A DNA stretch of 44,747 bases from Escherichia phage TR3. Each line of letters opens with the position of its first letter. The first letter of the stretch is position 1. The notes beneath the pieces were generated by a model, which was given only the letters and a program-made list of their open reading frames with translations, searched no databases and was not told the origin of the DNA. Below are positions 323 to 38,969 of the stretch, piece after piece. The stretch lies in the sequence record PP069512, one strand, 5' to 3'. The position numbers were made by a program, and so were the translations under genes.

Positions 323-342
323 TAGCACTAAATGACAAAACA

Positions 343-8983: not shown

Positions 8984-9013
8984 GTTACTTTACACAAACG
9001 ATAGGATACAGAA

Positions 9014-16685: not shown

Positions 16686-16765
16686 TCCTAAGATTTGAGG
16701 AGTTAACTAAGTTCTTTTCCTCAATTTGAGGAGGAGTTGACAGCACCATTGCCGCCACGCGCCTA

Positions 16766-16810
16766 AATATACCTAAAGATAGCCAGTTGTCTTTAGCAAA
16801 TCGTGCTATT
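16766..16810 (-). promoter_or_regulatory. phage promoter box (minus strand), 22-bp spacer, TATATT
   Basis: rc of 16791-16810 = AATAGCACGATTTGCTAAAG; -10-like rc of 16766-16771. Confidence 0.5.
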
Positions 16811-18460: not shown

Positions 18461-18504
18461 ACAGCACGAATTGCTAAAACAAAACGGGATGACTTAGGTA
18501 TAGT
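18461..18504 (+). promoter_or_regulatory. phage promoter box (ACAGCACGAATTGCTA, 22-bp spacer, TATAGT)
   Basis: Box 18461-18476; -10-like 18499-18504. Confidence 0.5.
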
Positions 18505-18533
18505 TATCCAATCAACAACGAACGAGGTTAAAG

Positions 18534-22271: not shown

Positions 22272-22317
22272 ATAGCACGAATTGCTAAAGTGGATTGTAG
22301 CATCTTTCAGGTATAAA
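22272..22317 (+). promoter_or_regulatory. orphan promoter box on + strand between two leftward genes
   Basis: ATAGCACGAATTGCTAAAG at 22272-22290; TATAAA at 22312-22317 (24-bp spacer); no downstream + strand gene. Confidence 0.35.
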
Positions 22318-22321
22318 AAAA

Positions 22322-22335
22322 CCTCCCGAAGGAGG
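22322..22335 (-). terminator. terminator of primase gene (minus strand)
   Basis: CCTCC-CGAA-GGAGG hairpin with A-tract on + strand; abuts primase stop. Confidence 0.55.
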
Positions 22336-23310
22336 TTAGCTGTTCAATAAATCACTTGCCTTATATATCTTCTTCCTGATTCCGCTCTTGAATGAGTATT
22401 CATCATTTGGTATTACCACATCAAGATTCCTCTCATCAGCAACGCAAAGCAATTCCCTATCAAGATAGCAAGCAACTCTTAACTTGAAATCTTTGAGTGC
22501 GTAAGCAACCATCTCCATGTTGTAGCTAGAGTGGCAAACAAGTACACATCGGTTGCCAGTAGCAAGATGAACACGAATACCATCAATCCAATTATCCACA
22601 AGATAAGCGTACTCATCACTTTTAAAGGAACCAATAACAGCAACTGACTGGCGTGTGTAATATTTTGCAGCATAACTAACATCTCCCTCCTCGTTAATAA
22701 ACATTACATTGCACATTTCTTCTGATATACCGTCACTATAAACCATAAAGCACGGTATTGCGTGTATTATTTCACCGGATTTTGTCCTGCCAACATCAAA
22801 ACCAAACTCGCTATAGATACCCTCGTATGTACTGAGCGGGGTTGATTCTACTCTTTCAGTCCTCTCCATTATCTCTAAGCATCTCTCGTGGTCAATTTGA
22901 GCGCCCATTTTGTAGAGCTTGGTTCTTGATGCTTGCTTGTTTGCCTTGTTAACAACCTCAACAGGGATAAGGCTTAACCACTCACCGAGAACATCGATAC
23001 ATTCACTAAATGACTCACCTCGCATTTTCTGGACCCAAACAACACCATCTCCTGAACCGCATTGGTTGCAGATAATTCCACCATCACCATCTTCGCTAAC
23101 CTTATTAGTCCATCTTGCGCGATCGTTGCCGCCGCAATAAATGCACGGCTGATGCTTTTTGGTCTGGAAAAACTTAGGGTCAGCGCCGCAGATGTTGATA
23201 AGTGCTTTATCCCACAGGCCGCGCATTCTTGGTATAACTTCTTTCTTATCGTAGTGCATATCAATCTGTCTCTTAACAAATAAAAAAAGGATGTACCGAT
23301 TATGGCACAT
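22336..23310 (-). CDS. DNA primase (zinc-ribbon type)
   Basis: Zinc-ribbon motif CIYCGGNDRARW...CNQCG near N-terminus; start may be internal Met at 23259. Confidence 0.65.
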   Translation of the reverse strand: MCHNRYILFLFVKRQIDMHYDKKEVIPRMRGLWDKALINICGADPKFFQTKKHQPCIYCGGNDRARWTNKVSEDGDGGIICNQCGSGDGVVWVQKMRGESFSECIDVLGEWLSLIPVEVVNKANKQASRTKLYKMGAQIDHERCLEIMERTERVESTPLSTYEGIYSEFGFDVGRTKSGEIIHAIPCFMVYSDGISEEMCNVMFINEEGDVSYAAKYYTRQSVAVIGSFKSDEYAYLVDNWIDGIRVHLATGNRCVLVCHSSYNMEMVAYALKDFKLRVACYLDRELLCVADERNLDVVIPNDEYSFKSGIRKKIYKASDLLNS

Positions 23311-23318
23311 CCCATTCT

Positions 23319-23792
23319 TTACTCTTTAGCTTTTCGTGCTGCCTCGTTGGCGGCCTTAATCTTACGCCATGATCGACACTCTGGCTTGGTGGCTAATTCA
23401 GCTTCGGTAACCACGCGCAGCATATGACGCTTTTTGCAACGTAGTGTAAGAGGCTTGCCGTTACCGTCGAATTGCAGGTCTGGTCGGCAGAATGTAGCTC
23501 GAAAACCTTCTCCGGTTCGTTTGTAGTAGTTGTGCGACAGCTGAGCACCACGCGCAGAAATCATACCACGATTGAACCATTCTTCTACAGTTTGGGGAGT
23601 TACCTTTAACTGCTTTGCGATGTTTGCCTTTGTTCCGAAGAAATCAAGGAGCATCTCAAGCCGTGCGCGTAACCCTGCCCTTACCTCGTCTTTTAAAACG
23701 TAGTAGCCTGAAGGTCGTTTCCGTTGTTTTTTGTCTTCAGTGCGGATGGTTCCGTTATTACCGTTAGTGGTTCGCTTGTCAACTGCACTCAT
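23319..23792 (-). CDS. basic HTH DNA-binding protein
   Basis: HTH-like segment TKANIAKQLKVTPQTVEEWF; ATG 23792 with RBS GAGGT (track start 23828 lacks RBS). Confidence 0.55.
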   Translation of the reverse strand: MSAVDKRTTNGNNGTIRTEDKKQRKRPSGYYVLKDEVRAGLRARLEMLLDFFGTKANIAKQLKVTPQTVEEWFNRGMISARGAQLSHNYYKRTGEGFRATFCRPDLQFDGNGKPLTLRCKKRHMLRVVTEAELATKPECRSWRKIKAANEAARKAKE

Positions 23793-23893: not shown

Positions 23894-25888
23894 ATGTTGC
23901 CTATCGAGAAGCTGGTTGCCAACTTTGATAAAGAAAGAATCAAACAGATTCAGAAAGATTATCAGTTTGGCGAGATAACCCCTTACGAATTCCAGTGCGT
24001 AACATTTGATGCAATCGGAAAGTCTATTGGCAAGTACGAGGCACCATTTATCGCTGACCTTTCAGTATCCGCTGGTAAGACAATCATTCTTGCTATGATT
24101 GGAAAGCGTATGGAGCAGCTTGGGCTTCCTTATATGGTTCTTTCTCGCCAGTCAGAAATAATTAGCCAGAACTCAGAAGAGCTTCGTAATTTCGGCATCC
24201 GTAATAGCGTCTATTGCGCCGGACTTAACGTTAAATCAGTTTACTACCCAACCATAGTGGCTAGCGAGGGTACAGCAGCTAACGGCTTGTTTAAGGGGCT
24301 TGGTGACTATGTTCCTGCCGTTATAGCTATAGATGAGTGTCACATGGTGGACCACATGGATATTGTGGAAGCTGAAGAGAACGAGGAAACATTTGAGCAA
24401 ATGAGCACAAAGAAAGGCGAGATGGTTTTTAAGGGTGGCGTAAACACAGGATTGCTTGGCACTGGTCGTGCGCAGTACACGCTAATTATCACTGAAATGA
24501 AGCGCCGCTGCAAAGAGAAGTATGGTCGCGAGCTCCGTATATTCGGCTTGACTGGTAGCCCGTATCGTAACAACGACCACATTGTAGTTAGTAACCCAAA
24601 TATTCGTGGCTTCTGGCGCAAGACGGTAATGCAAGTTCCGACCAGTTACCTGGTTGATTTGGGATTCGTTGTTCCAACTGTTTACGGTGAGGTTGGTGAT
24701 TTGGGTTATGACCTTAGCGAGTTTGCACCTGATGGAAGTGATGGCGTTAAGGATTTCAGCAAAAAAGAAATGGATGCAATGGCTGCAAAGATTCACGAAA
24801 ACCAGACGATGACACAAAAGATAATGGGGTTCGTTATCAAAATACTTGAAACACGTAACGCCGCACTGGTAACTTGCGCTGGTAAAATGCACTGCGATGA
24901 AGCGGCTGCTGCTCTACCCGATGGTTATCCTTACGCGATAATCACTGATTCCACTGGTGAGAAGAAGAGAAGGGAAATTCTAGATGAATGCCAGACCGGA
25001 AAGTACAAGATTATTTTTCAGATTGGATGCTTAACCACAGGCGTTTCGGTGCCTCCGTGGGACACAAGTGTCATACTCCGCAAGATTGGAAGCCTGACAT
25101 TAATGATTCAGCTTCTTGGTCGTGGAATGCGAATTCTCAAGAAGAAACATATTGAAATTGGTATGAAAAAGGATGACCACTTAGTCCTGGACTTTGCTGG
25201 CGCACTTGATGATATGGCTGAACTTTACTTTGATCCAATAATTGAAGAGATTCAGGCCGAGAAGTTTAAGTCATCACGCAATGGTGATTCAGAGGTTCGA
25301 GTGTGCCCAATTTGCTCATACGAGAATTCGCCTTTTGCTCGTAGATGCGGAAATAAGATTGACGGAAAGAGATGTGAGCACTTCTTTACTTTTACAGTTT
25401 GTGAAGATATTACAGACCTGCAGACAAAGGCTATTATCAAAAAAGGGTGCGGGACTCGCAATGATATAGCAGCGAAGGTCTGTCGAGAGTGCGGAGAGAT
25501 GCTTAAAGACCCCAATGCTAACCTTACAGGTAAGATGTATCGTCGTGGTGATTACCTTCTTGTTTATGATTTTCAAGTTGGCTTAAGTAAGAATCAAACC
25601 GGAATTGTTGTTAAGTACAATATCATGGCTCATAACGGAGATCGGTTTAATGCATGGGAATTCTTCAACCCCGAGTCTGACCATCGAGTTTGCAGCGTGC
25701 TATGGAAGAACTTCTGCCTTGCTCATATAGAGAATCGCGCTGAAGCCACAAGAATTGGCAGACTTCGCAATGCGAGAATGATTATGGCGAACGTAGATAA
25801 GTTCCGCGCACCAGTGCAGGTTACACATAGAAAAAACGGCAAAGGTAAAGATATAATCGCTTTTAAGAATTTTGGAGAATTGTTATGA
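23894..25888 (+). CDS. SF2 (DEAD/DEAH-type) helicase
   Basis: Walker A SVSAGKT; motif II DECH; motif VI QLLGRGMR; C-terminal Cys-rich zinc-finger-like repeats. Confidence 0.8.
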   Translation: MLPIEKLVANFDKERIKQIQKDYQFGEITPYEFQCVTFDAIGKSIGKYEAPFIADLSVSAGKTIILAMIGKRMEQLGLPYMVLSRQSEIISQNSEELRNFGIRNSVYCAGLNVKSVYYPTIVASEGTAANGLFKGLGDYVPAVIAIDECHMVDHMDIVEAEENEETFEQMSTKKGEMVFKGGVNTGLLGTGRAQYTLIITEMKRRCKEKYGRELRIFGLTGSPYRNNDHIVVSNPNIRGFWRKTVMQVPTSYLVDLGFVVPTVYGEVGDLGYDLSEFAPDGSDGVKDFSKKEMDAMAAKIHENQTMTQKIMGFVIKILETRNAALVTCAGKMHCDEAAAALPDGYPYAIITDSTGEKKRREILDECQTGKYKIIFQIGCLTTGVSVPPWDTSVILRKIGSLTLMIQLLGRGMRILKKKHIEIGMKKDDHLVLDFAGALDDMAELYFDPIIEEIQAEKFKSSRNGDSEVRVCPICSYENSPFARRCGNKIDGKRCEHFFTFTVCEDITDLQTKAIIKKGCGTRNDIAAKVCRECGEMLKDPNANLTGKMYRRGDYLLVYDFQVGLSKNQTGIVVKYNIMAHNGDRFNAWEFFNPESDHRVCSVLWKNFCLAHIENRAEATRIGRLRNARMIMANVDKFRAPVQVTHRKNGKGKDIIAFKNFGELL

Positions 25889-26304
25889 AAGTTACAGACA
25901 AAACTGACTACCTCGAGTTCTATGGCGGCCCGGTGAAGTCATGCCCGAAGGAAGACGACGAACAAATCTTTTGCTCTGATTGGGTTAAGTATAACTATCC
26001 GCAGGTTGTTTACTGGCACACAGTTAATGAATCAATGAAGAGCATTGGTCAGGCAAGGAAAGACCAGGCTAAAGGACTTCTTAAAGGCGTATCAGACTGC
26101 CTATTTCTAATACCTGAGTCATTACGAGGAAGTTATCCATTTGGCGCAATAGAGCTAAAGAGGGCTGGGAAAACACAGGCTAGCCCAGTAAGTGATGAGC
26201 AAAAGTCATTCCTAAAAAGCGTAAGGGAATCAGGCGGTTTCGCAGGAGTTGCCTACGGCAGAGATGGTTTTCTTGCTGCATTCGCAGAGATGATTAGAAA
26301 ATAG
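25885..26304 (+). CDS. VRR-NUC domain nuclease
   Basis: PD-(D/E)XK-like motif VSDCLF...IELKRAGK; ATGA-coupled to helicase gene. Confidence 0.65.
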   Translation: MKVTDKTDYLEFYGGPVKSCPKEDDEQIFCSDWVKYNYPQVVYWHTVNESMKSIGQARKDQAKGLLKGVSDCLFLIPESLRGSYPFGAIELKRAGKTQASPVSDEQKSFLKSVRESGGFAGVAYGRDGFLAAFAEMIRK

Positions 26305-26344
26305 CACGAATTGCTAAAGACGAATTGATGAAGTGGTGTATTAT
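26301..26344 (+). promoter_or_regulatory. phage promoter box (ATAGCACGAATTGCTA, 22-bp spacer, TATTAT)
   Basis: TAG of box is the stop of the VRR-NUC gene; -10-like 26339-26344 in loop of 9-bp inverted repeat. Confidence 0.5.
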
Positions 26345-26382
26345 CACTTCATCGAAACGAAACACACGAAGAGAGAAAGAAA

Positions 26383-27496: not shown

Positions 27497-27503
27497 TTTG
27501 AAA

Positions 27504-28637
27504 ATGACAGTAGCAAAGATTACCAACGATCAGCTAATCGAAGAACTTAAAAACGGCATGACTAACAAGGCGATTGCGGAGAAGTACGACATGAACATTC
27601 GCAACGTTGAACTTCGTCGCAGTAAGTTAGCTAAGAGTGGTTTGTTTGGGCATGGCAATGATGGTATCAAGAAGTTAGTGCCGGACGGCTATTTAGTCAA
27701 GGGTACTTCAACCATGATTGATGCGGATGGGAATGAGAAGCTGCGCTGGGTTAAGACGAGCGTTGATAATGAACGCCTTGAAATTATGCTCGAGCAAGCG
27801 CGAGAGGCTTTCTGTTCTGAGTTGCCAAAGTGTGAGGAAGTTAAGCATTCAGGCAAAGATACAAACCCTGACCTAATGACACTGTATCCAATTTTCGACA
27901 TACATATTGGAATGATGGCCCATCGCCACGAGTCTGGTGAAAATTATGACACGGCAACGGCAGAAAAACTAATGGGCTCATACTTTGACCATGCAATATC
28001 AGTTTCGCCAGCTTCAGAAAAGGCAGTCATCCTTGTTGGCGGTGATTATCTCCACTCAGATGGTCTTGAGGCGGTAACTCCAGCTAGTGGCCACTGCCTT
28101 GACCAAGATAGCCGTTACGCTAAGTTAGTCTACATCGCAATTAGATCAATTCGTGGCGCTGTAGAAAAGATGCTTAAAAAGCATAAAAGTGTTGACATTC
28201 AAATTATCGAGGGAAATCATGACCAAAGCGGCATGATCTGGCTTCGGGCTGCGATGGCTGCATTTTATGAAAATGAGAGTCGTGTCTTTGTTGATGTAAG
28301 CCCTGCGATTATGCACAAGACAAGATTTGGCTCAACACTACTTGGCTACACTCATGGTCACACAATGAAGAAAGCGGAAGGTAGACTTGCAGCTATGGCA
28401 ACTGATTACAGGAAAGACTTTGGTGAATGCGAGTTCGTTTATTGCCATTCCGGGCATTTTCACCACGCAACAGTAACAGAGTGCACTCTTGGTATTGACG
28501 AAGTACATCCAGCACTAGCAAGCAAGGATGCGTATGCAGCACGAGGGGGGTGGCGCTCATATCGTCAGGCTGCCGCGATTGTTTATCACAAAGAGTTTGG
28601 CGAGGTTGGTCGTCATATCTATCGACCTGGAATGTAA
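27504..28637 (+). CDS. HTH domain fused to calcineurin-like metallophosphoesterase
   Basis: N-terminal sigma-region-4-like HTH (MTNKAIAEKYDMNIRNVELRRSKL); phosphoesterase motifs DIHIG, GGDYLHSDG, GNHD, GHTH, HSGHFHH; ATG 27504 with RBS AAGGA. Confidence 0.7.
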   Translation: MTVAKITNDQLIEELKNGMTNKAIAEKYDMNIRNVELRRSKLAKSGLFGHGNDGIKKLVPDGYLVKGTSTMIDADGNEKLRWVKTSVDNERLEIMLEQAREAFCSELPKCEEVKHSGKDTNPDLMTLYPIFDIHIGMMAHRHESGENYDTATAEKLMGSYFDHAISVSPASEKAVILVGGDYLHSDGLEAVTPASGHCLDQDSRYAKLVYIAIRSIRGAVEKMLKKHKSVDIQIIEGNHDQSGMIWLRAAMAAFYENESRVFVDVSPAIMHKTRFGSTLLGYTHGHTMKKAEGRLAAMATDYRKDFGECEFVYCHSGHFHHATVTECTLGIDEVHPALASKDAYAARGGWRSYRQAAAIVYHKEFGEVGRHIYRPGM

Positions 28638-28640
28638 TAA

Positions 28641-28684
28641 ATAGCACTTTTTGTTAAGAAATCCCAGAGAAATCTGGGTATATT
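28641..28684 (+). promoter_or_regulatory. phage promoter box (ATAGCACTTT-TTGTTA, 22-bp spacer, TATATT)
   Basis: Spacer holds hairpin CCCAGA-GAAA-TCTGGG. Confidence 0.5.
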
Positions 28685-28714
28685 AATCAAACACAAACGA
28701 GATGGTAAACAAAA

Positions 28715-29312: not shown

Positions 29313-29867
29313 ATGAAAAAGTTAATCATCCTTAATGGACCCCCAGGTGCTGGAAAAGATACAGTTGCAGATATCATTGTTAAACTTGGAATTTGCAGGG
29401 ATAAGGTTTCTTTCAAATCACCTATGTTTAATGTGGCTAAGAGCATGCTATCAAGCGATGAGTTTGATGGATTTATTAAGAATTACGATGATCGAGAGTA
29501 CAAAGAATCACCACATGAATTTCTTGGTGGAATGACTGTTCGTCAATTTATGATTTGGATTAGCGAATCAGTGATGAAGCCAGTTTTTGGTGATGAAGTT
29601 TTCGGTAAAAGGCTAGCTCAGTCTCTTGGCAATGGTTGCCACATCTGTTCAGATGGTGGATTTGCAAGTGAAATTGAGCCACTAATTGAAAGTGGTGTTG
29701 AGGTTACATTGGTTAGGCTTCATAGACCTGGTTACACTTTCGAAGGAGATAGTAGGTCATACATTAGCGGCCTCTGCGCAAGGGAAATTGATATTGATGT
29801 TATTGAAGGTGATATTAAAATAACTACAGAAAAAGTGATTGATGCAATAAATAGCACGAATCGCTAA
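29313..29867 (+). CDS. P-loop nucleoside-monophosphate-kinase-like protein
   Basis: N-terminal Walker A NGPPGAGKDT, adenylate/dNMP kinase-like. Confidence 0.65.
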   Translation: MKKLIILNGPPGAGKDTVADIIVKLGICRDKVSFKSPMFNVAKSMLSSDEFDGFIKNYDDREYKESPHEFLGGMTVRQFMIWISESVMKPVFGDEVFGKRLAQSLGNGCHICSDGGFASEIEPLIESGVEVTLVRLHRPGYTFEGDSRSYISGLCAREIDIDVIEGDIKITTEKVIDAINSTNR

Positions 29868-29894
29868 ACAATCGCCACAGCAATTAGGTATAAT
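29851..29894 (+). promoter_or_regulatory. phage promoter box (ATAGCACGAATCGCTA, 22-bp spacer, TATAAT)
   Basis: Box overlaps last codons and TAA stop of kinase gene. Confidence 0.5.
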
Positions 29895-29925
29895 CACCAA
29901 ATCGAAAACAACAGAGGATTCAAAA

Positions 29926-31661: not shown

Positions 31662-33245
31662 TCACCCCAACAATCGCGGATTAATGTAAATCTTATCACC
31701 AATCAGGCATGTATAGTTTTTCTCATCAAGCATAGGAACCAAGTGGTCCTTGATGCGAGTCATTACGCCAGCCTGTCCTTCAAAAGGTTTAACTTTGCGT
31801 GCTGCTTCATACAGTGAGCGAACGCCAACAACACCCTTCCCATTCTTACCTTGCTTAATCAGGATATCAACCAGCTTATTCATTTCAGCATTATCACCAG
31901 CATGACCAGCAGCACTAGCGGACGACAAATAAGTCTTGCTTAACTCGTGGAAAATCATAACCGCTTCTTGCATTGTTTCAAGCTCAATCTCTCTTGATTT
32001 CTGCGGACTCGACCCTGCCGGTGCGAACCAGTTGCGAATAACGTGCAATACTGAGGCAATACGGATTGCTTGCTTATCAAATTTACCAAGAGCACCACGT
32101 AACATCGTGTGGGAATATTTACCGCCATCACCAAGATGCGGTTCCATTTCCTGGCGAGCTCGGTTAAGGTAGCGCATGGATGACGCACTTACTGTCAGTT
32201 TCACTTCAACTTCATTCATAATTTCATGAACGAGACGGAAATAGTCTGCTTTAAGACCATCATCAATAGCCTCGTATGTTGAATCGCCATTCTCATCAAC
32301 AAACACGCGGTCTCCAAGAAATGACTTTTCACGCACCAGAAGGAAACGCTCGGAAACACCAATACCACGCGCACCAGCATTCATAATCGCATTGATTGTT
32401 TCATCCTGAGCAATTACAGAGATGCACCCCATTGCCACGAAACTCATGTTGTTTTCTGCGTTAGCGCGGGCAATAGATACGTTACCAGCATCCCACGCTT
32501 TAAGTACAAGCTCGCTGTTCGTTTTCTTGGAACCATCACCGTATGTCATGCCCAATAATGAGTTGACGCTTGTTGCCTCATCCGAGATGACCGCAAAGTT
32601 ACCCTGGCGGTTGTTGATTCGTGCAAGACCTTCTGGCGTAGTATCTGAGACCGGGAATACGATATCGCACAGCTTCTCGAGCTTTTCCTCTAAATCTTCC
32701 TTCTCCTCAAACAGTGAAGCCATCTCAGATGGTGACTTCTCCTGTTTCATTTCTTTTGCTAGCGCAGACAGCTTAGCCATAATCTTTTTGCGGTCACGTT
32801 TACGCACCTCGTTCAAACGCTCAGTCTCAGCAATCATTGGCGCAATTGACAGAGAGTTAATGGCTGACTTACCAGTAGATGGCGGCTGGCTAGTTACCAC
32901 GTAAAGCGATGTTGGCTGCTGGGTTCCGTGATACTCAACAGTAAAGCGCCCTAGCATCGCAGCGGACACACAACCCAAAAAGTGCATGTATGCTGATGAC
33001 TCTGGGAACTGAACTGAGCGAGCAATATTTGCCGAGAGCTTACCAACAACATCAATGTCATTGCCTAGAGATATTACAGGGTACTTGTCATTACCTGCGT
33101 CAATCTCCATAGGTGTTTTCCAGAATGATTGAGACTGCCGATAGCCATTTGCATTAATGGCAACGCGAAGCGGTGGGAGGTTGTCGGTCGCGGCAATCGC
33201 CATAACTTGTTCAACAGATAGTTTATCTTCGTTGAAATCAAACAT
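31662..33245 (-). CDS. P-loop NTPase of unknown role (possible replication/helicase-like)
   Basis: Walker A-like SQPPSTGKSA; 527 aa; RBS GGAGAG; own promoter box. Confidence 0.55.
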   Translation of the reverse strand: MFDFNEDKLSVEQVMAIAATDNLPPLRVAINANGYRQSQSFWKTPMEIDAGNDKYPVISLGNDIDVVGKLSANIARSVQFPESSAYMHFLGCVSAAMLGRFTVEYHGTQQPTSLYVVTSQPPSTGKSAINSLSIAPMIAETERLNEVRKRDRKKIMAKLSALAKEMKQEKSPSEMASLFEEKEDLEEKLEKLCDIVFPVSDTTPEGLARINNRQGNFAVISDEATSVNSLLGMTYGDGSKKTNSELVLKAWDAGNVSIARANAENNMSFVAMGCISVIAQDETINAIMNAGARGIGVSERFLLVREKSFLGDRVFVDENGDSTYEAIDDGLKADYFRLVHEIMNEVEVKLTVSASSMRYLNRARQEMEPHLGDGGKYSHTMLRGALGKFDKQAIRIASVLHVIRNWFAPAGSSPQKSREIELETMQEAVMIFHELSKTYLSSASAAGHAGDNAEMNKLVDILIKQGKNGKGVVGVRSLYEAARKVKPFEGQAGVMTRIKDHLVPMLDEKNYTCLIGDKIYINPRLLG

Positions 33246-33275
33246 TACTTCTCTCCGTATTGTTTCTGAGCGGCC

Positions 33276-33323
33276 ATTATATCAACAGCCGCTTATAATG
33301 CATTATCAATTCGTGCTGCTATT
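33276..33323 (-). promoter_or_regulatory. phage promoter box (minus strand), 22-bp spacer, TATAAT
   Basis: rc of 33304-33322 = ATAGCAGCACGAATTGATA; -10 rc of 33276-33281; TAG of box is stop of upstream gene. Confidence 0.5.
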
Positions 33324-33672
33324 TGTAAGATGATTCAAATAGGTAAGTCTGGCAAAGAGTGTAGAAACCAACATCTTCGCTTCGATATAGCTGCCATGCA
33401 TTACCATCTTCGTCGTAAATGTAACCAGCAGACTGACCCATCCCGCTATGCATTAGCACCTGGTATCTCTTTCCTTCTTTGAAATACTTCTTAACGCCAG
33501 ATTTGTGGTTAACATGTGTCACGTAAAGCGTTCTGGTCTTAATGTATTTACCACGTTCTTCCAGATTAACCCATTTGCCATCTTTCTTGATTTGCTCGAC
33601 ACCATCTTTAACGCGAGCTTTAAACAGTTGGTTGTCTTTGCTAATGAAATTTTTAGTTATGGTAGTAGTCAT
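33319..33672 (-). CDS. hypothetical protein (117 aa)
   Basis: ORF; TAATG-coupled to upstream small ORF. Confidence 0.5.
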   Translation of the reverse strand: MTTTITKNFISKDNQLFKARVKDGVEQIKKDGKWVNLEERGKYIKTRTLYVTHVNHKSGVKKYFKEGKRYQVLMHSGMGQSAGYIYDEDGNAWQLYRSEDVGFYTLCQTYLFESSYK

Positions 33673-33836: not shown

Positions 33837-33868
33837 GATTACTTGTTCTCTTTCGTTTCGATGAGGAA

Positions 33869-33914
33869 ACTATACAACAAAAGCCCCGAAGGGCTTTAGC
33901 AATTCGTGCTATTT
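33869..33914 (-). promoter_or_regulatory. phage promoter box (minus strand), 22-bp spacer, TATAGT
   Basis: rc of 33895-33914 = AAATAGCACGAATTGCTAAA; spacer contains hairpin AAAGCCC-TTCG-GGGCTTT. Confidence 0.5.
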
Positions 33915-34057
33915 CTCGCCTTCTCAATCGCCTTAAGCATAATCTCGTGAGATTCAAGCAAGTCCTCGTTGAACCATTCCCCGCAAGGCCAGCCCTTGCC
34001 GCTGTAAGAACTAATAACTTCCAGATCAAAATAGTTAATCTCAGATGGTAATAGCAT
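33896..34057 (-). CDS. hypothetical small protein (53 aa, ends NSTNC inside promoter box)
   Basis: Not in track; TAATG-coupled to upstream gene; preferred over track ORF 33829..34029, which reads through the box and hairpin. Confidence 0.4.
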   Translation of the reverse strand: MLLPSEINYFDLEVISSYSGKGWPCGEWFNEDLLESHEIMLKAIEKARNSTNC

Positions 34058-34260
34058 TATTCAATCACCTTAAAAGTTGCGATTCCTGGGATGACGACGT
34101 AATCAAGGCATTTAAGAGCCTGAAACGTGTCGTGATGCTTATGTGGACGCTCTCCGGTAACAAGGCACATGTCATCTTTGAAATCGGTAGCGTTGTATTC
34201 AGAGCCCTTATTGAACGCGTCGTTAAAGTCTTTAATGATATTGGTGCAAAGTAGTTTCAT
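34057..34260 (-). CDS. hypothetical small protein (67 aa)
   Basis: RBS GAAGG; coupled. Confidence 0.45.
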   Translation of the reverse strand: MKLLCTNIIKDFNDAFNKGSEYNATDFKDDMCLVTGERPHKHHDTFQALKCLDYVVIPGIATFKVIE

Positions 34261-34261
34261 G

Positions 34262-34456
34262 CTAACCTTCTACTGTTTCAAAAATAAGCCTATTTTTAAT
34301 TGCTGCAATGACACGTCCATCATCAATGTAGCAGTAAACTGGTTTGAAGTTGTCACCAACTACGTAACCATAAATTTCATCATAAATGTAATGCTTTCCG
34401 TTTCTAAATTCCCAGGTTCCATCATTAAGATTATTTAAGCACTTAACTTTCATCAT
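34262..34456 (-). CDS. hypothetical small protein (64 aa)
   Basis: Start chosen at Met overlapping upstream stop (ATGA). Confidence 0.45.
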   Translation of the reverse strand: MMKVKCLNNLNDGTWEFRNGKHYIYDEIYGYVVGDNFKPVYCYIDDGRVIAAIKNRLIFETVEG

Positions 34457-34650
34457 CTCATTCCTTGCCAGGGTAAACATTCGTCACAGCCCAAGCCATC
34501 ACAACATAGATACTCATCATCTGACTGGAATTGCTTAGCGAGGTCAATATCAATCTTGCCGCGCAAAACCATATCGCTGTACATCTCGTTCAACCCAATC
34601 AGAGCGCATTCCTGCTTTAGCTGCTCATACGCTTCGTCTTTAAGTTTCAT
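34453..34650 (-). CDS. hypothetical small Cys-rich protein (65 aa)
   Basis: RBS AGGAGAGAG; motif CCDGLGCDEC. Confidence 0.5.
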   Translation of the reverse strand: MKLKDEAYEQLKQECALIGLNEMYSDMVLRGKIDIDLAKQFQSDDEYLCCDGLGCDECLPWQGMR

Positions 34651-34677
34651 ATCTCTCTCCTCGTTGTTGATGGATTC

Positions 34678-34722
34678 ATTATGGTCTCGTTACCAATGTT
34701 TGTCATTAGCAAAAAGTGCTAT
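34678..34722 (-). promoter_or_regulatory. phage promoter box, variant (minus strand), about 23-bp spacer
   Basis: rc of 34707-34722 = ATAGCACTTTTTGCTA; CATAAT-like -10. Confidence 0.4.
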
Positions 34723-34741
34723 TCGTTGGGTTTATGTATTA

Positions 34742-34832
34742 TTGCAGTTATTGCAATGATTCATCTCATTATTGCACATATAGCAATATTGCATCTGATG
34801 CAATGATTTTTTTGATTGTTGCAGAATTTGCA
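34742..34832. repeat. iteron-like array of 7-8 TTGCA boxes
   Basis: TTGCA at 34742, 34751, 34772, 34789, 34819, 34828 and TGCAA at 34799; pairs about 9-10 bp apart, pair-to-pair about 30 bp. Confidence 0.6.
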
Positions 34833-34914
34833 ATTATTGATGTGAGGGTGAATGAATGGTGGATGGACTACCATACAAGTTGATTTTTATTCTGGCCGAG
34901 CCATTTTGCCGCAT

Positions 34915-35070
34915 ACACGTAACCGGCGTAGCGCGATGTAAGCCAACCACTATCGTTACGCGAGTTACGCGAAGCTACGCCTAGACTTACACTATAAGTA
35001 CTTAATATATATATATATCTTCTTTCTATTATTATTATTATTATTATTATTATTGTATGTAAGTCATGTA
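34915..35070. repeat. non-coding control element, copy B (ACACGTAACCG box, GTTACGC repeats, (TA)7 and (ATT)8 microsatellites, TCATGTAACT)
   Basis: Paralogous to 16840..17001. Confidence 0.6.
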
Positions 35071-35324
35071 ACTGGTGCTCTTCTGCTATATATATGTTTT
35101 TTCCTATCAGAGTACATATCTGCAATTTTATGGAAGAAATAGCCAGTATTGGGCAACCCCACCCAATTTATGCGTTACAGGCGTTACCACAAACTACATT
35201 TAGCTATAGCTTGGCTAGGATGCCATTTCGCGTAACCACACCTAAAAGTTACCAAAAATTACACTTGATTACGTGTGTAAGTCGATATATGATGGATTCA
35301 ACCTAAACGAGAGGAGTGATAAAC

Positions 35325-35804
35325 ATGAATGAGAAAGCAACATTGGGTCAAGTGATTCGCGAGATGGTAAAACAGGCTCTAAAATCTGAAGATAAGCAAT
35401 TCAGCGTTTCACTAAGGAAAATTGAAAGCATTATTGGCAGTGAAGATGGTTCCATTAAGAAGCTTAAGAGCTCATACATCTACAACACAACAGCTCGCAT
35501 GCCTGAGTTGAGAGACGCAGGTATGAAGGCGACTCACTACTATGATGAAGATAGCGGCAAAAGCCAATTCGGCGTGACAGAGCTATCAGATGGCAAGAGG
35601 CTGGTTATCAAACTGATCCCTGGAACTGCCAACATTGGTATCAGGAAGAAGACCAATGACGCAATCAAGGTGGAGGCAATAACTGAATTCAAGGCTAAGA
35701 TATCGAAAGTCATGCCAGACCTATCGGAGTATGAAGGTGAAGCGCTCGCAGCAGCAATGAAAGCAATTAAAGATTATCGTTTGATTATTGAGGAGATTAA
35801 ATAA
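35325..35804 (+). CDS. hypothetical protein (159 aa)
   Basis: ATG 35325 with RBS GAGGAG (track start 35316 is GTG). Confidence 0.55.
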   Translation: MNEKATLGQVIREMVKQALKSEDKQFSVSLRKIESIIGSEDGSIKKLKSSYIYNTTARMPELRDAGMKATHYYDEDSGKSQFGVTELSDGKRLVIKLIPGTANIGIRKKTNDAIKVEAITEFKAKISKVMPDLSEYEGEALAAAMKAIKDYRLIIEEIK

Positions 35805-35845
35805 TGTTTAACTTTAACGATGACAAACTAACAGCATAGCAGGTA

Positions 35846-36328
35846 ATGAATATCGCCAGGCAAGATGGACTTTCGCCAGTCAGAATCGTAATAAATGCAA
35901 ATGGGTATCGTCAGTCAACGCCATTCTGGGGTTCGATTGATACGTCAGATGTGTACTCAGGTGATGAGCTTGGTGTGCTAATTAAAATCATCAGGAAGAT
36001 GGGAGTTAACGGGAAAGGAGTGGTTGGTGTCAGGTCTGTATATGAAGGAGCTCGAAAGGTTAAGCCTTTTGTTGGGCGTAATGGAGTGATGTTGCTCATC
36101 AAGGACAAGCTAATCCCAGAGCTCGACAAGATGAATGTTACATGTCTAATTGGCGATAAGGTTTATGTTCACCCCGCAATACTCAATGAGTGTTGGGAGC
36201 CTAACTTCAAGGTCTACGAAGGTAAGCATCCTAGTAGACTACCATACCACTTGCGGTACAGCGAGGAAGAGGTTGAGGCGGCGATGGAGTTTTATCGGGA
36301 AGCTAAATTACTCCTGAATGGACAATAG
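35846..36328 (+). CDS. truncated paralog of the P-loop NTPase (N- and C-terminal regions only; amber-interrupted leader at 35804..35839)
   Basis: Residues VINANGYRQS and GKGVVGVRS..KVKPF..CLIGDK match ends of the 31662..33245 protein; upstream in-frame MFNFNDDKLTA-TAG matches that protein's N-terminus MFDFNEDKLSVE. Confidence 0.55.
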   Translation: MNIARQDGLSPVRIVINANGYRQSTPFWGSIDTSDVYSGDELGVLIKIIRKMGVNGKGVVGVRSVYEGARKVKPFVGRNGVMLLIKDKLIPELDKMNVTCLIGDKVYVHPAILNECWEPNFKVYEGKHPSRLPYHLRYSEEEVEAAMEFYREAKLLLNGQ

Positions 36329-36368
36329 CACGAATTGCTAAACAATCGCCGGAGAAATCCGGCATAAT
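36326..36368 (+). promoter_or_regulatory. phage promoter box (ATAGCACGAATTGCTA, 22-bp spacer, CATAAT)
   Basis: TAG of box is stop of upstream gene; spacer holds hairpin GCCGGA-GAAA-TCCGGC. Confidence 0.5.
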
Positions 36369-36399
36369 TACCACATCGACAACACGATGGAGTATAGAG

Positions 36400-36609
36400 A
36401 TGAGAATAAAGATTATTGAAGTTGACATTGCTGATGGTGACGAACTTAGCCTTGCTGATTGCGGTTTCCAGGTTGGTGATATTGTTGATGTTTCCGGTAA
36501 GTATAAAGATGGTAGCTTATCAGTTCAGGCGATTCGTGATACTGATTTAGTAACAATCGGCAACGAGATTAGTTTGCAAGAAGGCGAATACGAGGTAATT
36601 GAAGAATGA
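36400..36609 (+). CDS. hypothetical small highly acidic protein (69 aa)
   Basis: RBS GGAG; Asp/Glu-rich. Confidence 0.5.
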   Translation: MRIKIIEVDIADGDELSLADCGFQVGDIVDVSGKYKDGSLSVQAIRDTDLVTIGNEISLQEGEYEVIEE

Positions 36610-36785
36610 GATTCCGACAATCAGAACCAAAACTTCAGGCTAACCACTCCGACGGCTACGCAACATTCATCATTGCTCAGGCTTGCGGAATGCGTGACGA
36701 ACCTCAAGTTCACACCATCCACTTAACAGAAGAGCAAGCTAGAGAACTGGCTTACGAAATTCTTGAGCAATTGAACAAGATTTAA
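36606..36785 (+). CDS. hypothetical small protein (59 aa)
   Basis: Not in track; ATGA coupling. Confidence 0.4.
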   Translation: MRFRQSEPKLQANHSDGYATFIIAQACGMRDEPQVHTIHLTEEQARELAYEILEQLNKI

Positions 36786-36795
36786 GGAAAACAAG

Positions 36796-36930
36796 ATGCA
36801 CACGGAACTTATGATTGACGAGGTTTTAGTTGAGGCTTTACCATGGTTGTTGTGGTCTCTGGGCTTCGCGATTATTTACATTATTTCGGCAGCCGTAGAC
36901 GATGCTAAAACGCATTCTAACGAACTATAA
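36796..36930 (+). CDS. small membrane peptide (44 aa)
   Basis: Not in track; RBS AAGGAAA; hydrophobic core LPWLLWSLGFAIIYIISAAV. Confidence 0.4.
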   Translation: MHTELMIDEVLVEALPWLLWSLGFAIIYIISAAVDDAKTHSNEL

Positions 36931-36948
36931 TTTAAGGCATGCGATTAG

Positions 36949-37107
36949 ATGGATAACTACGAAAAACCAAGCCAGTGGGCTAAGAGAATGATGGATGATG
37001 CTGAGACTGGCGAGATTGCCATGATGTACTTTGAGTTAATGAATATCTGGAAAGAGCGTGAGGAAAAGCGTGGTCTAAATAAGGGCGAGGATAAGAAAAA
37101 TGCTTAA
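36949..37107 (+). CDS. hypothetical small protein (52 aa)
   Basis: Not in track; weak RBS. Confidence 0.3.
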   Translation: MDNYEKPSQWAKRMMDDAETGEIAMMYFELMNIWKEREEKRGLNKGEDKKNA

Positions 37108-37258
37108 CACATGTTTATTCCCGAAATGTGATGAATTTGTTGAGGATTTAATCTACTTCAATGAGAAATACGGTGACACGTTTGAGTGCGATGGCGATAC
37201 AGACGAAGTATTAGCAACTTTTGATAGAGGGCCAGATGTAGACAGCACGAATAGCTAA
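37100..37258 (+). CDS. hypothetical small protein (52 aa, ends DSTNS inside promoter box)
   Basis: Not in track; overlaps previous ORF by 8 nt. Confidence 0.35.
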   Translation: MLNTCLFPKCDEFVEDLIYFNEKYGDTFECDGDTDEVLATFDRGPDVDSTNS

Positions 37259-37285
37259 ACGTGACAGGCATTGATGCCATATAAT
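37242..37285 (+). promoter_or_regulatory. phage promoter box (ACAGCACGAATAGCTA, 22-bp spacer, TATAAT)
   Basis: Spacer holds palindrome GGCATTGATGCC. Confidence 0.5.
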
Positions 37286-37314
37286 CAACCAATCAAACAA
37301 CGAGAGGGCAGAAA

Positions 37315-38376: not shown

Positions 38377-38901
38377 ATGAAAGACGAAAACTTCACCAGC
38401 CAGGCGCAAGAAAAGATTCGCTCTGGCAACTTCAAAGCCATGTACAACAAAAAGTATTCTGACATTACAACTCTGTCCAAAAACCGAATAATGACCCCAG
38501 AGCAGCTATTCGACCTGGCCGTGAAATACTTCTCATGGGCTGAGAGCCAGGCAATCAAGGCAATTGAGACAGCCAGCTTCCAGGGTGTCGTAACCGAGAA
38601 TCTGGTGCACAAGCCACGAGTCTTCACACTAACAGGATTCTGCCTTTACTGCGGTGTTACCCATAGCGCAATAGAGAAATGGAGGAAGTCGGAGGGTTAT
38701 GACGAGGTAATTGCATTCATTGATTCCGTGATTCGCGAGCAGAAGTATCAGCTGGCAGCGTCTGGCATTGTTAACCCTGGCATGATTTCCAAAGAACTTG
38801 GCATCGATAAGCCGCAGGAGATTACTATAAGCAATAACTCTTCAGCTAACGACGTTGGCACGATGAAGGAAGCGCTGGAGTCTGTGATTAGTAAGCTGTA
38901 G
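38377..38901 (+). CDS. terminase small subunit (putative)
   Basis: 174 aa immediately upstream of HNH and terminase large subunit; RBS AAAGGAGG. Confidence 0.55.
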   Translation: MKDENFTSQAQEKIRSGNFKAMYNKKYSDITTLSKNRIMTPEQLFDLAVKYFSWAESQAIKAIETASFQGVVTENLVHKPRVFTLTGFCLYCGVTHSAIEKWRKSEGYDEVIAFIDSVIREQKYQLAASGIVNPGMISKELGIDKPQEITISNNSSANDVGTMKEALESVISKL

Positions 38902-38941
38902 CACTTTTTGTTAAAAGAAGAGGCCCAATCAATGAGATAAT
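38899..38941 (+). promoter_or_regulatory. phage promoter box (TAGCACTTT-TTGTTA, 22-bp spacer, GATAAT)
   Basis: TAG of box is TerS stop; -10-like sits in loop of GGCCCA/TGGGCC inverted repeat. Confidence 0.5.
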
Positions 38942-38969
38942 GGGCCCAACAAACTAGCGAGGTGATCAT

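What the first reader, a model, noticed from the sequence alone, without database searches (positions are those of the whole stretch)
33896..37258. Promoter box doubles as the 3' end of upstream genes and supplies their stop codons
The box TAG is the stop codon for 25885..26304, 33319..33672, 35846..36328 and the TerS gene 38377..38901. In three other genes the box is read in frame, giving near-identical C-termini NSTNR* (29313..29867), NSTNC* (33896..34057) and DSTNS* (37100..37258) that end on the box TAA. The regulatory element therefore constrains protein C-termini, an unusually tight coupling of gene end and next promoter.
Basis: seen in the sequence. Interest (0 to 1): 0.5.

Follow-up and report, generated by a model that had tools for sequence, protein, structure and literature searches.

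The report
Host-activator promoter overlapping gene ends
In this T1-like coliphage about seventeen promoters begin with a 20-bp box that matches the binding site of the host stress activators MarA/SoxS/Rob, and upstream genes are packed so tightly against it that the box often supplies their stop codon and last few amino acids, and the promoter often contains their terminator hairpin.

Summary
The window is a Christensenvirus (Drexlerviridae) genome with 17 copies of one module: box aATAGCAC-nnWTTG-YTAAA, 18 bp, a -10 hexamer, then a CA start and an ATCGAAACGA leader. One correction: the TAG of 33319..33672 lies 3 nt upstream of a CAG-variant box.

The box is the 21-nt direct repeat already described, with function unknown, in phage TLS. 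I find that it fits the E. coli marbox consensus. Its orientation and its distance to the -10 are identical to the class II micF promoter, and a matrix built from the phage boxes recovers the micF and mar marboxes.

The stop triplets belong to the DNA motif: TAG is present in 26/26 boxes that have no abutting upstream gene. In homologous genes the stop sits at different offsets from the box, so the NSTNC-type tails are by-products of compaction.

Stops cluster at the box edge, and frame 0 holds 29 of 44 junction families (p=1e-5). Promoters that follow a gene also carry a hairpin (-10.7 versus -4 to -5 kcal/mol), so terminator and promoter are nested.

Binding by the host activators is inferred, not shown.

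The parts
320..372 (+). Module 1. Gene 20..322 stops at TAA 320-322, in frame with the box TAG. Marbox-like box 322-341 (ATAGCACTAAATGACAAAAC). Hairpin 342-363. -10 at 360-365. Start ~372.
   Evidence: hairpin dG -13.2 followed by a T-run
3601..3651 (+). Module 2. Box 3601-3620 (T-type), -10 TATTAT 3639-3644, start ~3651. The upstream major-tail gene ends 34 nt earlier and has its own terminator.
   Evidence: only a weak internal hairpin (-5.5)
8939..8991 (+). Module 3 (degenerate box ATAGCATTTTTTGATAAATA, 8941-8960). Gene 8186..8941 stops at TAA 8939-8941, followed in frame by the box TAG.
15534..15586 (-). Module 4. ORF 15584..15853(-) stops at TAA 15586-15584, in frame with the box TAG. Box 15584-15565. 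Hairpin 15562-15545. -10 TATTAT 15546-15541.
   Evidence: 0 mismatches to the marbox consensus
16759..16809 (-). Module 5. Box 16809-16790 in a divergent intergenic region with no upstream gene. -10 TATATT 16771-16766.
   Evidence: no hairpin (-2.5)
18458..18511 (+). Module 6. Exonuclease gene 17495..18460 stops at TAA, 4 nt before the box C/T position. Box 18461-18480 (ACAGCAC...). -10 TATAGT 18499-18504.
22272..22322 (+). Module 7, an orphan box 22272-22291. It faces the 3' end and terminator of the minus-strand primase gene and has no downstream gene.
   Evidence: the same arrangement occurs in AugustePiccard, IME542 and Rtp
23292..23342 (-). Module 8. Box 23342-23323 lies wholly inside the 3' end of the HTH regulator gene 23319..23792/23828(-). 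It is read in the third frame (AARKAKE*), with stop TAA at 23321-23319. Hairpin 23313-23288 encloses the -10 CATAAT and is followed by T7.
   Evidence: the same frame in 4 genomes
26301..26351 (+). Module 9. The box TAG 26302-26304 is the stop of VRR-NUC gene 25885..26304. Box 26301-26320. Hairpin 26325-26355 encloses the -10 TATTAT 26339-26344.
   Evidence: the TAG is used at this junction in all 6 genomes
28635..28691 (+). Module 10. Gene 27498..28637 stops at TAA, 7 nt before the box T. Box 28641-28660 (T-type). Hairpin 28663-28678. -10 TATATT 28679-28684.
29851..29901 (+). Module 11. Box 29851-29870 is read in frame by dNMP-kinase-like gene 29313..29867 (NSTNR*), with stop = box TAA 29865-29867. 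-10 TATAAT 29889-29894.
33269..33321 (-). Module 12. Gene 33319..33672(-) stops at TAG 33321-33319, directly before a CAG-variant box 33319-33300. Hairpin 33293-33269 encloses the -10 TATAAT 33281-33276.
33862..33912 (-). Module 13. Box 33912-33893 is read in frame by the 53-aa gene 33896..34057(-) (NSTNC*), with stop = box TAA 33898-33896. Terminator-like hairpin 33897-33880 whose T-rich tail runs into the -10 TATAGT 33874-33869.
34672..34722 (-). Module 14. Box 34722-34703 (T-type), the first promoter of the leftward operon, with no upstream gene. ATGACA-17-CATAAT.
   Evidence: no hairpin
36325..36375 (+). Module 15. The box TAG 36326-36328 is the stop of 35846..36328. Box 36325-36344. Hairpin 36348-36363. 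-10 CATAAT 36363-36368. Start ~36375.
37242..37292 (+). Module 16. Box 37242-37261 (ACAGCAC...) is read in frame by the 52-aa gene 37100..37258 (DSTNS*), with stop = box TAA 37256-37258. -10 TATAAT 37280-37285.
38898..38948 (+). Module 17. The box TAG 38899-38901 is the stop of TerS 38377..38901. Box 38898-38917 (T-type). Hairpin 38922-38946 encloses the -10 GATAAT 38936-38941.
   Evidence: the same arrangement in Rtp

Best explanation
The box is the upstream half of an activator-type sigma-70 promoter that is repeated about 17 times in this genome and 15-21 times in every Drexlerviridae genome examined.

Anatomy, shown from sequence:
- A 20-bp asymmetric box, aATAGCAC-(G/T)WWTTG-YTAAA.
- An 18-bp spacer with no sequence conservation.
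- A good -10 hexamer.
- A CA start about 7 nt later.
- A conserved AUCGAAACGA leader.
- No usable -35 hexamer.

Identity, inferred from sequence and geometry. The box is a marbox, the binding site of the host's monomeric AraC-family activators MarA, SoxS and Rob (RamA in Klebsiella). It sits in the class II configuration: forward orientation, centred near -41, overlapping the -35 region. Host RNA polymerase would therefore be recruited to most phage operons by a host activator. Rob, which as I recall it is constitutive, is the obvious candidate. The phage encodes no MarA-like protein.

Why gene ends fall in the box:
- The genome is packed so that the intergenic DNA at these junctions (56-83 nt) is essentially the module itself.
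- The motif contains TAG at its 5' edge and TAA near its 3' edge. An upstream ORF that runs into it is stopped at once in one frame and gains a 4-5 residue tail (STNC/STNR/STNS) in the second. Only the third frame is open.
- Many ORFs place their own TAA 3-4 nt before the box, in its A-rich flank.

Why a hairpin fits inside the promoter. The spacer of such a promoter shows no sequence conservation. It is used to hold the upstream transcript's 3' hairpin, either just before the -10 (which then serves as the U/A-rich tail) or enclosing the -10.

Translation stop, transcript 3' structure and the next promoter are thus superimposed in about 50 bp. The stop-codon supply is a by-product of motif sequence plus compaction, not a dedicated function.
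For: The module and its spacing:
- Alignment of 15 copies.
- The -10 starts at +37 from the box T in 89 of 105 copies from six genomes.
- Information profile, with CA at +48/+49 and a mean -10 match of 4.6/6, against 2.8/6 for the best -35.

Same element as a published repeat:
- TLS direct repeat aaATAGCACnnnTTGnTAAAA, co-oriented with transcription, ~76 nt upstream of start codons, also seen in T1 and Rtp. Its function was left open (PMC11447400).

Marbox identity:
- Published consensus AYnGCACnnWnnRYYAAAY (PMC3709825) and GCAHWWWWTGYYAAA (PMC6900184).
- The first consensus, with up to 1 mismatch, hits the window 12 times against 0.86 expected. Ten of the hits are the boxes.
- Across the genomes, 75 of 104 boxes have at most 1 mismatch to the first consensus and 83 of 104 to the second.

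Geometry:
- Class II means forward orientation, overlapping -35, centred ~-41, with no recognisable -35 (PMC10268841, PMC12052159, PMC8811837).
- In E. coli micF the 20-bp marbox ends 18 bp before the -10, as in the phage module.

Cross-validation:
- A matrix built only from phage modules finds the micF promoter in register at 11.1 bits, above the maximum of 2 Mb of random sequence.
- The box-only matrix picks the micF marbox (forward) and the mar marbox (reverse) as top hits of their loci, each with a random frequency of 5e-7.

Other support:
- No MarA/SoxS/Rob-like ORF in seven phage genomes.
- Stops are intrinsic to the motif: TAG in 26/26 and TAA in 24/26 boxes with no abutting ORF.
- The tails are labile among homologues.
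- Hairpin dG over +16..+52 averages -10.7 kcal/mol for 79 boxes with an abutting ORF. It averages -4.0 to -5.1 for 26 boxes without one, and the genome background is -4.5 (p=2e-8).
- The T1 and KP36 records independently annotate these hairpins as terminators or stem-loops.
Against: - No experiment supports binding or activation. No transcription-start or 3'-end data for any Drexlerviridae were found, so the start site and the -41 centre are inferred from the -10 and the CA dinucleotide.
- The last consensus position (Y) is matched in only 25% of boxes.
- The phage boxes are more constrained than the host consensus: A at the N position in 102 of 104. This could reflect another binding protein.
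- As I recall it, Rob at normal levels is largely inactive in unstressed cells, and MarA and SoxS are scarce. Reliance on them for nearly all phage transcription is surprising, and no host-factor study reports it.
- A conserved phage HTH regulator exists.
- Many hairpins lack a U-tract, so 'terminator' is only partly apt.
- Junctions in different genomes are homologous, so counts are not independent. I collapsed them to 44 families.
Confidence: 0.6

Rival explanations
1. The box is the operator of a phage-encoded regulator, for example the conserved T1 gp23-like HTH protein (window 23319..23792, minus strand). This protein would activate the promoters, or silence them as a 'stoperator'. The resemblance to the marbox would be convergent or coincidental.
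For: - The box has partly palindromic arms, TAGCA/TGCTA.
- The regulator is conserved in T1, Rtp, KP36, IME542 and AugustePiccard. It has a Cro-like HTH and belongs to PHROG 2856, 'transcriptional regulator'.
- In TLS its gene is served by one of only three canonical sigma-70 promoters.
- The phage boxes are more constrained than the host consensus.
- The TLS authors proposed a stoperator or enhancer site.
Against: - The information profile is asymmetric. G at +2 is invariant while its dyad partner at +12 is only Y. The AAA tail has no symmetric partner. The two strong blocks, GCAC and TAAA, lie one helical turn apart, as expected for a two-HTH monomer.
- The match to the host marboxes holds in sequence, orientation and spacing to the base pair.
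- Boxes precede the first genes of the early operons, before any phage protein exists.
- These are virulent phages with no repressor-maintained state (my knowledge).
Confidence: 0.2
2. No activator is involved. The box would act as an UP-element-like or extended upstream contact for RNA polymerase alpha or sigma, with a weak -35 (TAAACA/AAGACA) immediately after it.
For: - A-rich flanks and a T/A tract in the box. The TLS authors suggested UP elements.
- The simple sigma-70 scan picks TAAACA or AAGACA or ATGACA with 16-18 bp spacers at several boxes.
Against: - Invariant G/C positions (GCAC, G at +11) are not UP-like.
- The best -35 match averages 2.8/6.
- Sigma-70-type sites in the window are not above shuffled expectation.
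- The exact marbox geometry would be left unexplained.
Confidence: 0.1
3. The coupling is functional at the RNA level. The box in the upstream mRNA, together with the stop codon placed in it and the hairpin behind it, would form a dedicated translation-termination, processing or stability signal. Use of the box TAG would then be selected for its own sake.
For: - Frame 0 is over-represented, 29 of 44 junction families, p=1e-5.
- Hairpins occur only where an ORF abuts.
- The box is always co-oriented with transcription.
Against: - Boxes with identical TAG and TAA occur where there is no abutting upstream ORF, 26 of 26.
- The distance to the -10 is fixed.
- Use of the TAG itself is not above one third, 19 of 44, p=0.11.
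- Offsets vary among homologous junctions.
Confidence: 0.07
4. Artefact: the small ORFs are not genes, and the overlaps are chance consequences of an A/T-rich motif.
For: Two of the seven ORFs are unannotated in the closest record.
Against: - Both are conserved and annotated elsewhere.
- The motif is enriched far above shuffles.
- The pattern recurs in six genomes.
Confidence: 0.01

Closest known systems
21-nt direct repeats of phage TLS, also noted in T1, Rtp and Rogue1 (German, Kropinski, Misra et al., Phage 2024, PMC11447400)
   Same: It is the same element. The consensus is aaATAGCACnnnTTGnTAAAA, with A/T/G subtypes defined by the central triplet. It is co-oriented with transcription and lies ~76 nt upstream of start codons.
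   Different: That paper left the function open (stoperator, enhancer site or UP element). It reported only three sigma-70-like promoters in TLS and does not use the terms 'stop codon' or 'termination codon'. What is added here: the fixed -10 and leader, the overlap with stop codons, the nested hairpins and the marbox match.
Class II MarA/SoxS/Rob (marbox) promoters of E. coli, e.g. micF
   Same: Asymmetric 20-bp site fitting AYnGCACnnWnnRYYAAAY, in forward orientation, 18 bp from the -10, centred ~-41, with a poor -35.
   Different: Host marboxes are degenerate and scattered through a stress regulon. Here near-consensus copies drive most operons of a virulent phage, and they are fused to the preceding gene's stop codon and hairpin. 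Binding has not been tested.
Phage promoters in which an activator box replaces the -35 (T4 MotA-box middle promoters, Mu Mor/C-dependent promoters)
   Same: A sigma-70 -10 element plus a conserved upstream box instead of a -35, repeated through the genome (my knowledge of these systems).
   Different: Those activators are phage-encoded, and their boxes sit at -30 (MotA) or are dyad-symmetric near -43 (Mor). Here no phage activator is evident, and the box matches a host factor's site.
Promoters overlapping upstream gene ends in compact phage genomes (T4 late TATAAATA, T7 promoters)
   Same: Regulatory motifs that contain stop triplets lie at or within the 3' ends of the preceding genes (my knowledge).
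   Different: Here the overlap is systematic at one fixed register. The motif closes two of the three reading frames, and the upstream transcript's hairpin is placed inside the promoter spacer.
Mycobacteriophage L5 stoperators
   Same: Many asymmetric, co-oriented copies of one short site lying between genes. The TLS authors drew this analogy.
   Different: Stoperators are repressor sites of a temperate phage and have no fixed partner -10. These phages are virulent, and each box has a -10 at a fixed distance.

Membership tests
Class II MarA/SoxS/Rob-dependent (marbox) promoter | A site matching the asymmetric marbox consensus AYnGCACnnWnnRYYAAAY / GCAHWWWWTGYYAAA | tested here: met
   - 12 hits with up to 1 mismatch in the window against 0.86 expected.
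- 75 of 104 boxes have at most 1 mismatch to the first consensus and 83 of 104 to the second.
- A phage-derived matrix recovers the micF and mar marboxes as top hits.
- The consensus forms are quoted from PMC3709825 and PMC6900184.
Class II MarA/SoxS/Rob-dependent (marbox) promoter | Forward orientation relative to transcription (GCAC distal, AAA proximal to the -10) | tested here: met
   - Every detected box has its -10 downstream, and nearly all have a gene there. A few are orphan.
- micF reads CACT-7X-AAA towards the promoter. The phage box reads CACG-7X-AAA.
Class II MarA/SoxS/Rob-dependent (marbox) promoter | The site overlaps the -35 region and is centred near -41, with the same distance to the -10 as known class II promoters | tested here: met
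   - The marbox spans -1..+18 relative to the box T, and the -10 starts at +37 in 89 of 105 copies.
- That leaves 18 bp between them, identical to micF.
- The centre is -40.5 if transcription starts at the conserved CA at +48/+49. The start site is inferred, not mapped.
Class II MarA/SoxS/Rob-dependent (marbox) promoter | No recognisable -35 hexamer, but a good -10 | tested here: met
   - The best -35 match averages 2.8/6 and the -10 averages 4.6/6.
- Class II promoters in Salmonella match the -35 at an average of 1.9 positions.
Class II MarA/SoxS/Rob-dependent (marbox) promoter | Bound and activated by MarA, SoxS or Rob | not testable with these tools
   This needs EMSA or footprinting, in vitro transcription and infection of marA soxS rob mutants. 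No report was found.
T1-like 21-nt direct repeat (TLS DR1-18) | Consensus aaATAGCACnnnTTGnTAAAA, co-oriented with genes, ~76 nt upstream of start codons | tested here: met
   - Window consensus aATAGCACgAATTGcTAAA.
- The box lies 70-75 nt upstream of the next start codon.
Intrinsic (rho-independent) terminator, for the hairpins inside the promoters | A G+C-rich stem-loop directly followed by a U-tract | tested here: inconclusive
   - Hairpins are strongly enriched.
- Some have clear T-runs: 23313-23288, 33897-33880 and 342-363.
- In others only the A/T-rich -10 follows, or the stem encloses the -10 and no U-tract follows.
- The T1 and KP36 records annotate several of these hairpins as terminators.
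Sigma-54 promoter (TGGCAC-N5-TTGC) | GG and GC dinucleotides 11 bp apart (G to G), with no -10 hexamer | tested here: not met
   - The box has AG rather than GG.
- Its G-to-G distance is 9 bp, not 11.
- A conserved sigma-70 -10 follows at a fixed distance.
- The sigma-54 consensus is from my knowledge.
Dimeric-regulator palindromic operator | Two-fold symmetric conservation of half-sites | tested here: not met
   The arms TAGCA/TGCTA exist, but information is asymmetric. Position +2 is G with 2.0 bits while its partner at +12 has 0.7 bits. The AAA tail and the upstream AA are not symmetric either.

The most novel reading that the evidence does not exclude
A whole family of virulent enterobacterial phages (Drexlerviridae: T1, TLS, Rtp, Klebsiella Webervirus and this Christensenvirus) drives most of its operons from near-consensus class II marbox promoters. 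Phage gene expression would then depend on, and be tuned by, the host's MarA/SoxS/Rob/RamA stress and antibiotic-resistance activators. Each such promoter is also fused with the preceding gene's stop codon and 3' hairpin, forming a single ~50-bp punctuation unit.
Probability: 0.5. Interest if true: 0.75.

Novelty: new variant of a known kind. Interest (0 to 1): 0.55.

Why it matters
- It offers a concrete, testable answer to a question left open in print: what the 21-nt repeats of T1-like phages do (PMC11447400).
- If host MarA/SoxS/Rob/RamA activate these promoters, infection by T1-like phages would be linked to the host's multidrug-resistance and oxidative-stress regulon. These phages include Klebsiella Webervirus, which as I recall is used therapeutically, and T1-like phages are notorious laboratory and fermentation contaminants (PMC13164509).
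- Inducers known to me, such as salicylate, bile salts, paraquat or antibiotics, and mar or ramA up-mutations in resistant strains, could then change phage productivity.
- A marA soxS rob background might give phage-tolerant production strains.
- For annotation, the result shows where promoters, transcript ends and true gene ends lie in Drexlerviridae. It also shows that the short NSTNC-type tails are by-products rather than functional motifs.
- More generally, it is a clean example of how a promoter whose spacer shows no sequence conservation can house the preceding gene's terminator.

Tried and rejected
- **Sigma-54 reading of AGCAC...TTGC.** Rejected. The G-to-G spacing is 2 bp short, there is no GG, and a sigma-70 -10 is present.
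- **TTGCTA as a true -35.** Rejected. The spacer would be 22 bp.
- **Symmetric dimer operator.** Rejected on the information asymmetry.
- **Lrp consensus (YAGHAWATTWTDCTR, from memory).** Only 11-12 of 15 positions match, in the arms only. I dropped this once the marbox fit every specified position.
- **The tool's sigma-70 promoter scan.** Counts were not above shuffles, so it gave no independent promoter map.
- **nhmmer of the phage model on the 401-bp micF locus.** It returned nothing because no residues passed its filters. I replaced it with an ungapped matrix scan.
- **Literature.**
  - The exact box strings are not in any relevant paper.
  - No transcription-start data exist for Drexlerviridae.
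  - Two general promoter searches were uninformative.
  - Nothing links marbox, MarA, SoxS or Rob to T1-like phages.
- **Pfam, PHROG and PDB searches on the gp23-like regulator and neighbours.** They gave only 'HTH regulator' or unknown function. I did not pursue structure prediction because it could not discriminate between the hypotheses.
- **Box TAG as a significantly preferred stop.** Not supported on its own, 19 of 44 families, p=0.11. Only the frame-0 bias is significant.

Full report
**What the window is.** The region 33000-39500 is 99.6% identical to Escherichia phage CY1_Cui-2023 (Drexlerviridae, Braunvirinae, Christensenvirus). Weaker matches reach many T1-like coliphages. The 44.7-kb window is essentially a whole T1-like genome.

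**Checking the observation.** The sequence confirms all seven gene ends.
- The box TAG is the stop of 25885..26304, 35846..36328 and TerS 38377..38901.
- The box-end TAA terminates 29313..29867 (DAINSTNR*), 33896..34057(-) (KARNSTNC*) and 37100..37258 (PDVDSTNS*).
- One correction is needed. The stop of 33319..33672(-) is a TAG placed 3 nt before a box that itself carries CAG (caaaTAG-CAGCAC...).
- These ORFs cannot end earlier, because there is no in-frame stop upstream. The only question is whether they are genes.
- Five are annotated in CY1.
- The 53-aa ORF is PHROG 4548, matched end to end. It is annotated in Rtp, AugustePiccard and IME542.
- The 52-aa ORF has homologues in 17 phage records.

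**The module.**
- The core AGCACnnnnnGCTA is enriched: 33 hits with up to 1 mismatch against 9.6 expected.
- Aligning the copies with their flanks shows much more than a box. The parts are: box, a spacer of fixed length, gGTATAAT-like -10, then cATCGAAACGA.
- A profile of the 15 clear copies finds two degenerate ones, at 320 and 8939. Both sit again exactly at gene ends.
- The same profile finds 15-21 copies in each of T1, Rtp, IME542, AugustePiccard and Klebsiella phage KP36.
- In 89 of 105 copies the best -10 hexamer starts 37 nt after the box T.
- The conservation profile is aATAGCAC(G/T)WWTTGYTAAA, 18 unconserved positions, TAtaaT, then CA at +48/+49 and a purine-rich leader. The -10 matches TATAAT at 4.6/6 on average. 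The best -35 matches at only 2.8/6.

**Already described.** The TLS re-annotation paper reports a 21-nt direct repeat, aaATAGCACnnnTTGnTAAAA, at 21 sites. It is co-oriented with transcription, lies ~76 nt before start codons and is also present in T1, Rtp and Rogue1. The authors left its function open: stoperator, enhancer site or UP element. They found only three sigma-70-like promoters (PMC11447400). The paper does not use the terms 'stop codon' or 'termination codon'.

**What the box is.** The box fits the binding-site consensus of the E. coli activators MarA, SoxS and Rob. I first recalled this consensus from memory and then verified it in the literature.
- *Consensus.* AYnGCACnnWnnRYYAAAY is quoted in PMC3709825. 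The ChIP-seq form GCAHWWWWTGYYAAA is in PMC6900184. The T- and A-type boxes fit the second form at 15 of 15 positions, and the G-type at 14 of 15.
- *Enrichment.* Searching the window with the published consensus gives 12 hits with up to 1 mismatch against 0.86 expected. Ten of them are the boxes.
[quoted passage not shown] In the phage module the 20-bp marbox spans -1..+18, which puts its centre at -40.5 from the conserved CA.
- *Positive control.* I read the E. coli K-12 micF promoter. Its marbox ACAGCACTGAATGTCAAAAC is followed by 18 bp and then TAGAAT, the same spacing as in the phage to the base pair.
- *Cross-validation.* A matrix built only from 104 phage modules finds the micF promoter in register at 11.1 bits. 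That exceeds the maximum over 2 Mb of random sequence. The box-only matrix picks the micF marbox on the forward strand and the mar marbox ATGCCACGTTTTGCTAAAT on the reverse strand, as expected for a class I site. Each is the top hit of its locus, with a random frequency of 5e-7.
- *Monomer, not dimer.* The information profile shows two strong blocks, GCAC and TAAA, one helical turn apart. The conservation is asymmetric, which fits a two-HTH monomer rather than a dimeric palindrome.
- *No phage-encoded homologue.* None of seven phage genomes encodes a MarA-like protein.
- *Prior reports.* Four full-text searches found nothing linking marboxes or these activators to T1-like phages (and the TLS paper itself).

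Binding and activation remain untested.

**Why genes end in the box.**
- The motif contains TAG at its 5' edge and TAA at +13. These belong to the DNA motif and are not there for translation. Boxes with no abutting upstream ORF have TAG in 26/26 cases and TAA in 24/26.
- Of 105 boxes in six distinct genomes, 79 have the stop of a co-oriented upstream ORF between -7 and +20. In 10 the ORF ends 13-57 nt earlier, several of them behind a stand-alone terminator. The remaining 16 have no upstream ORF.
- After collapsing homologous junctions to 44 families, the family-weighted offsets are:

| Stop offset from box T | Families (weighted) |
|---|---|
| 0 (box TAG) | 19.4 |
| -3 (TAA followed in frame by TAG) | 6.3 |
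| +13 (box TAA) | 5.9 |
| -4 (TAAATAG) | 4.9 |
| +20 (third frame read through) | 1.0 |

- Frame 0 holds 29 of 44 families (p=1e-5). Use of the TAG alone is not above one third (p=0.11).
- Offsets differ among homologues: HNH endonucleases -4/0/+13, dNMP kinase -4/0/+13, tail protein L -4/0. One A more or less in the run before the box converts ...NHGK* into ...NHGNSTNC*.
- Distant homologues of 37100..37258 align only to residue 44. Where another gene follows instead of a box, they end without the tail.
- The tails are therefore labile by-products. Conversely, boxes whose upstream ORF stops elsewhere have lost the TAG in 12 of 32 cases. Coding needs sometimes erode the box.
- In the regulator gene (23319..23792/23828, minus strand) the whole box is read in the open frame as AARKAK. 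Its central W-tract is AAAA, which satisfies both codes.
- In the window, the stop-to-next-start distances at these junctions are 56-83 nt, about the length of the module itself.

**Nested hairpins.**
- The stretch from +16 to +52 folds much more stably than background. The mean is -9.2 kcal/mol against -4.5 for random genome windows (p=8e-24).
- This holds only when an ORF abuts the box. The mean is -10.7 for those 79 boxes, against -4.0 and -5.1 for the 26 boxes with a distant or absent upstream ORF (p=2e-8).
- The hairpin therefore belongs to the upstream gene's 3' end, not to promoter function.
- Two layouts occur:
  - The stem ends at the -10, which then forms the A/U-rich tail. Examples are 36348-36363, 28663-28678 and 33897-33880.
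  - The stem encloses the -10. Examples are 26325-26355, 33293-33269, 38922-38946 and 23313-23288, the last followed by T7.
- The T1 and KP36 GenBank records annotate several of these hairpins as rho-independent terminators or stem-loops.
- Many have no U-tract. Whether they terminate, pause or stabilise transcripts is open.
- The spacer of this promoter shows no sequence conservation. Published class II structures report sigma-70 displaced from the -35. Both facts may explain why the spacer can hold a hairpin.

**Verdict.**
- Its cause is ordinary: a stop-rich DNA motif plus genome compaction.
- The box is a known repeat of T1-like phages.
- What appears new is its identification as a class II marbox promoter and the nesting of the preceding gene's stop and hairpin within it.
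- The marbox identification rests on sequence, orientation, spacing and two host positive controls. It does not rest on any binding data.
- I put it at about 0.6, with a phage-encoded binder as the main rival.

Noticed in passing
window 22272-22322 (+): An orphan box-plus--10 module points into the 3' end and bidirectional terminator of the minus-strand primase gene and has no downstream ORF. It is conserved in AugustePiccard, IME542 and Rtp. It might make a short or antisense RNA, or be a decoy site.
   Followed up: partly
window 34740-35110: The 670-bp divergent intergenic region holds a tandem 47-nt unit rich in ATTGCA/TTGCAA motifs (34740-34833). It also holds a (TA)n run and an (ATT)n microsatellite (35000-35054). 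This could be a replication origin or a regulatory array.
   Followed up: partly
window 35265-35293 (+): The first rightward gene (DUF7174, 35325..35804) is preceded by a box-less TTGATT-17-TATGAT promoter-like site. It is the counterpart of the canonical promoter P01 reported for TLS.
   Followed up: partly
window 37980-38055 (+): ARAGORN calls a tRNA-Arg with anticodon CCT. Relatives carry a tRNA-Arg annotated as TCT/AGA at the same place.
   Followed up: no
window 31787-31805 (-): A marbox-like sequence, GCAGCACGCAAAGTTAAAC (1 mismatch), lies inside the helicase gene 31662..33245(-). It could be an internal promoter or a chance hit.
   Followed up: no
window 15996-16010 (-): The antirepressor-like gene 15996..16685(-) ends in TAGCACTAATGACC. 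This looks like the 5' half of a decayed box whose TAG still serves as the stop.
   Followed up: no
L001 (CY1) 21967-22176 = window 34045-34254: The CY1 record annotates a plus-strand CDS here. Synteny and RBS-coupled starts favour the minus-strand ORFs 34057..34260 and 33896..34057, so this is probably a wrong-strand call in the public record.
   Followed up: partly
window 382-990 (+): An HNH_3 plus AP2-domain homing-endonuclease-like gene sits directly downstream of module 1. HNH endonuclease genes in relatives are often flanked by boxes and show all three stop offsets.
   Followed up: partly
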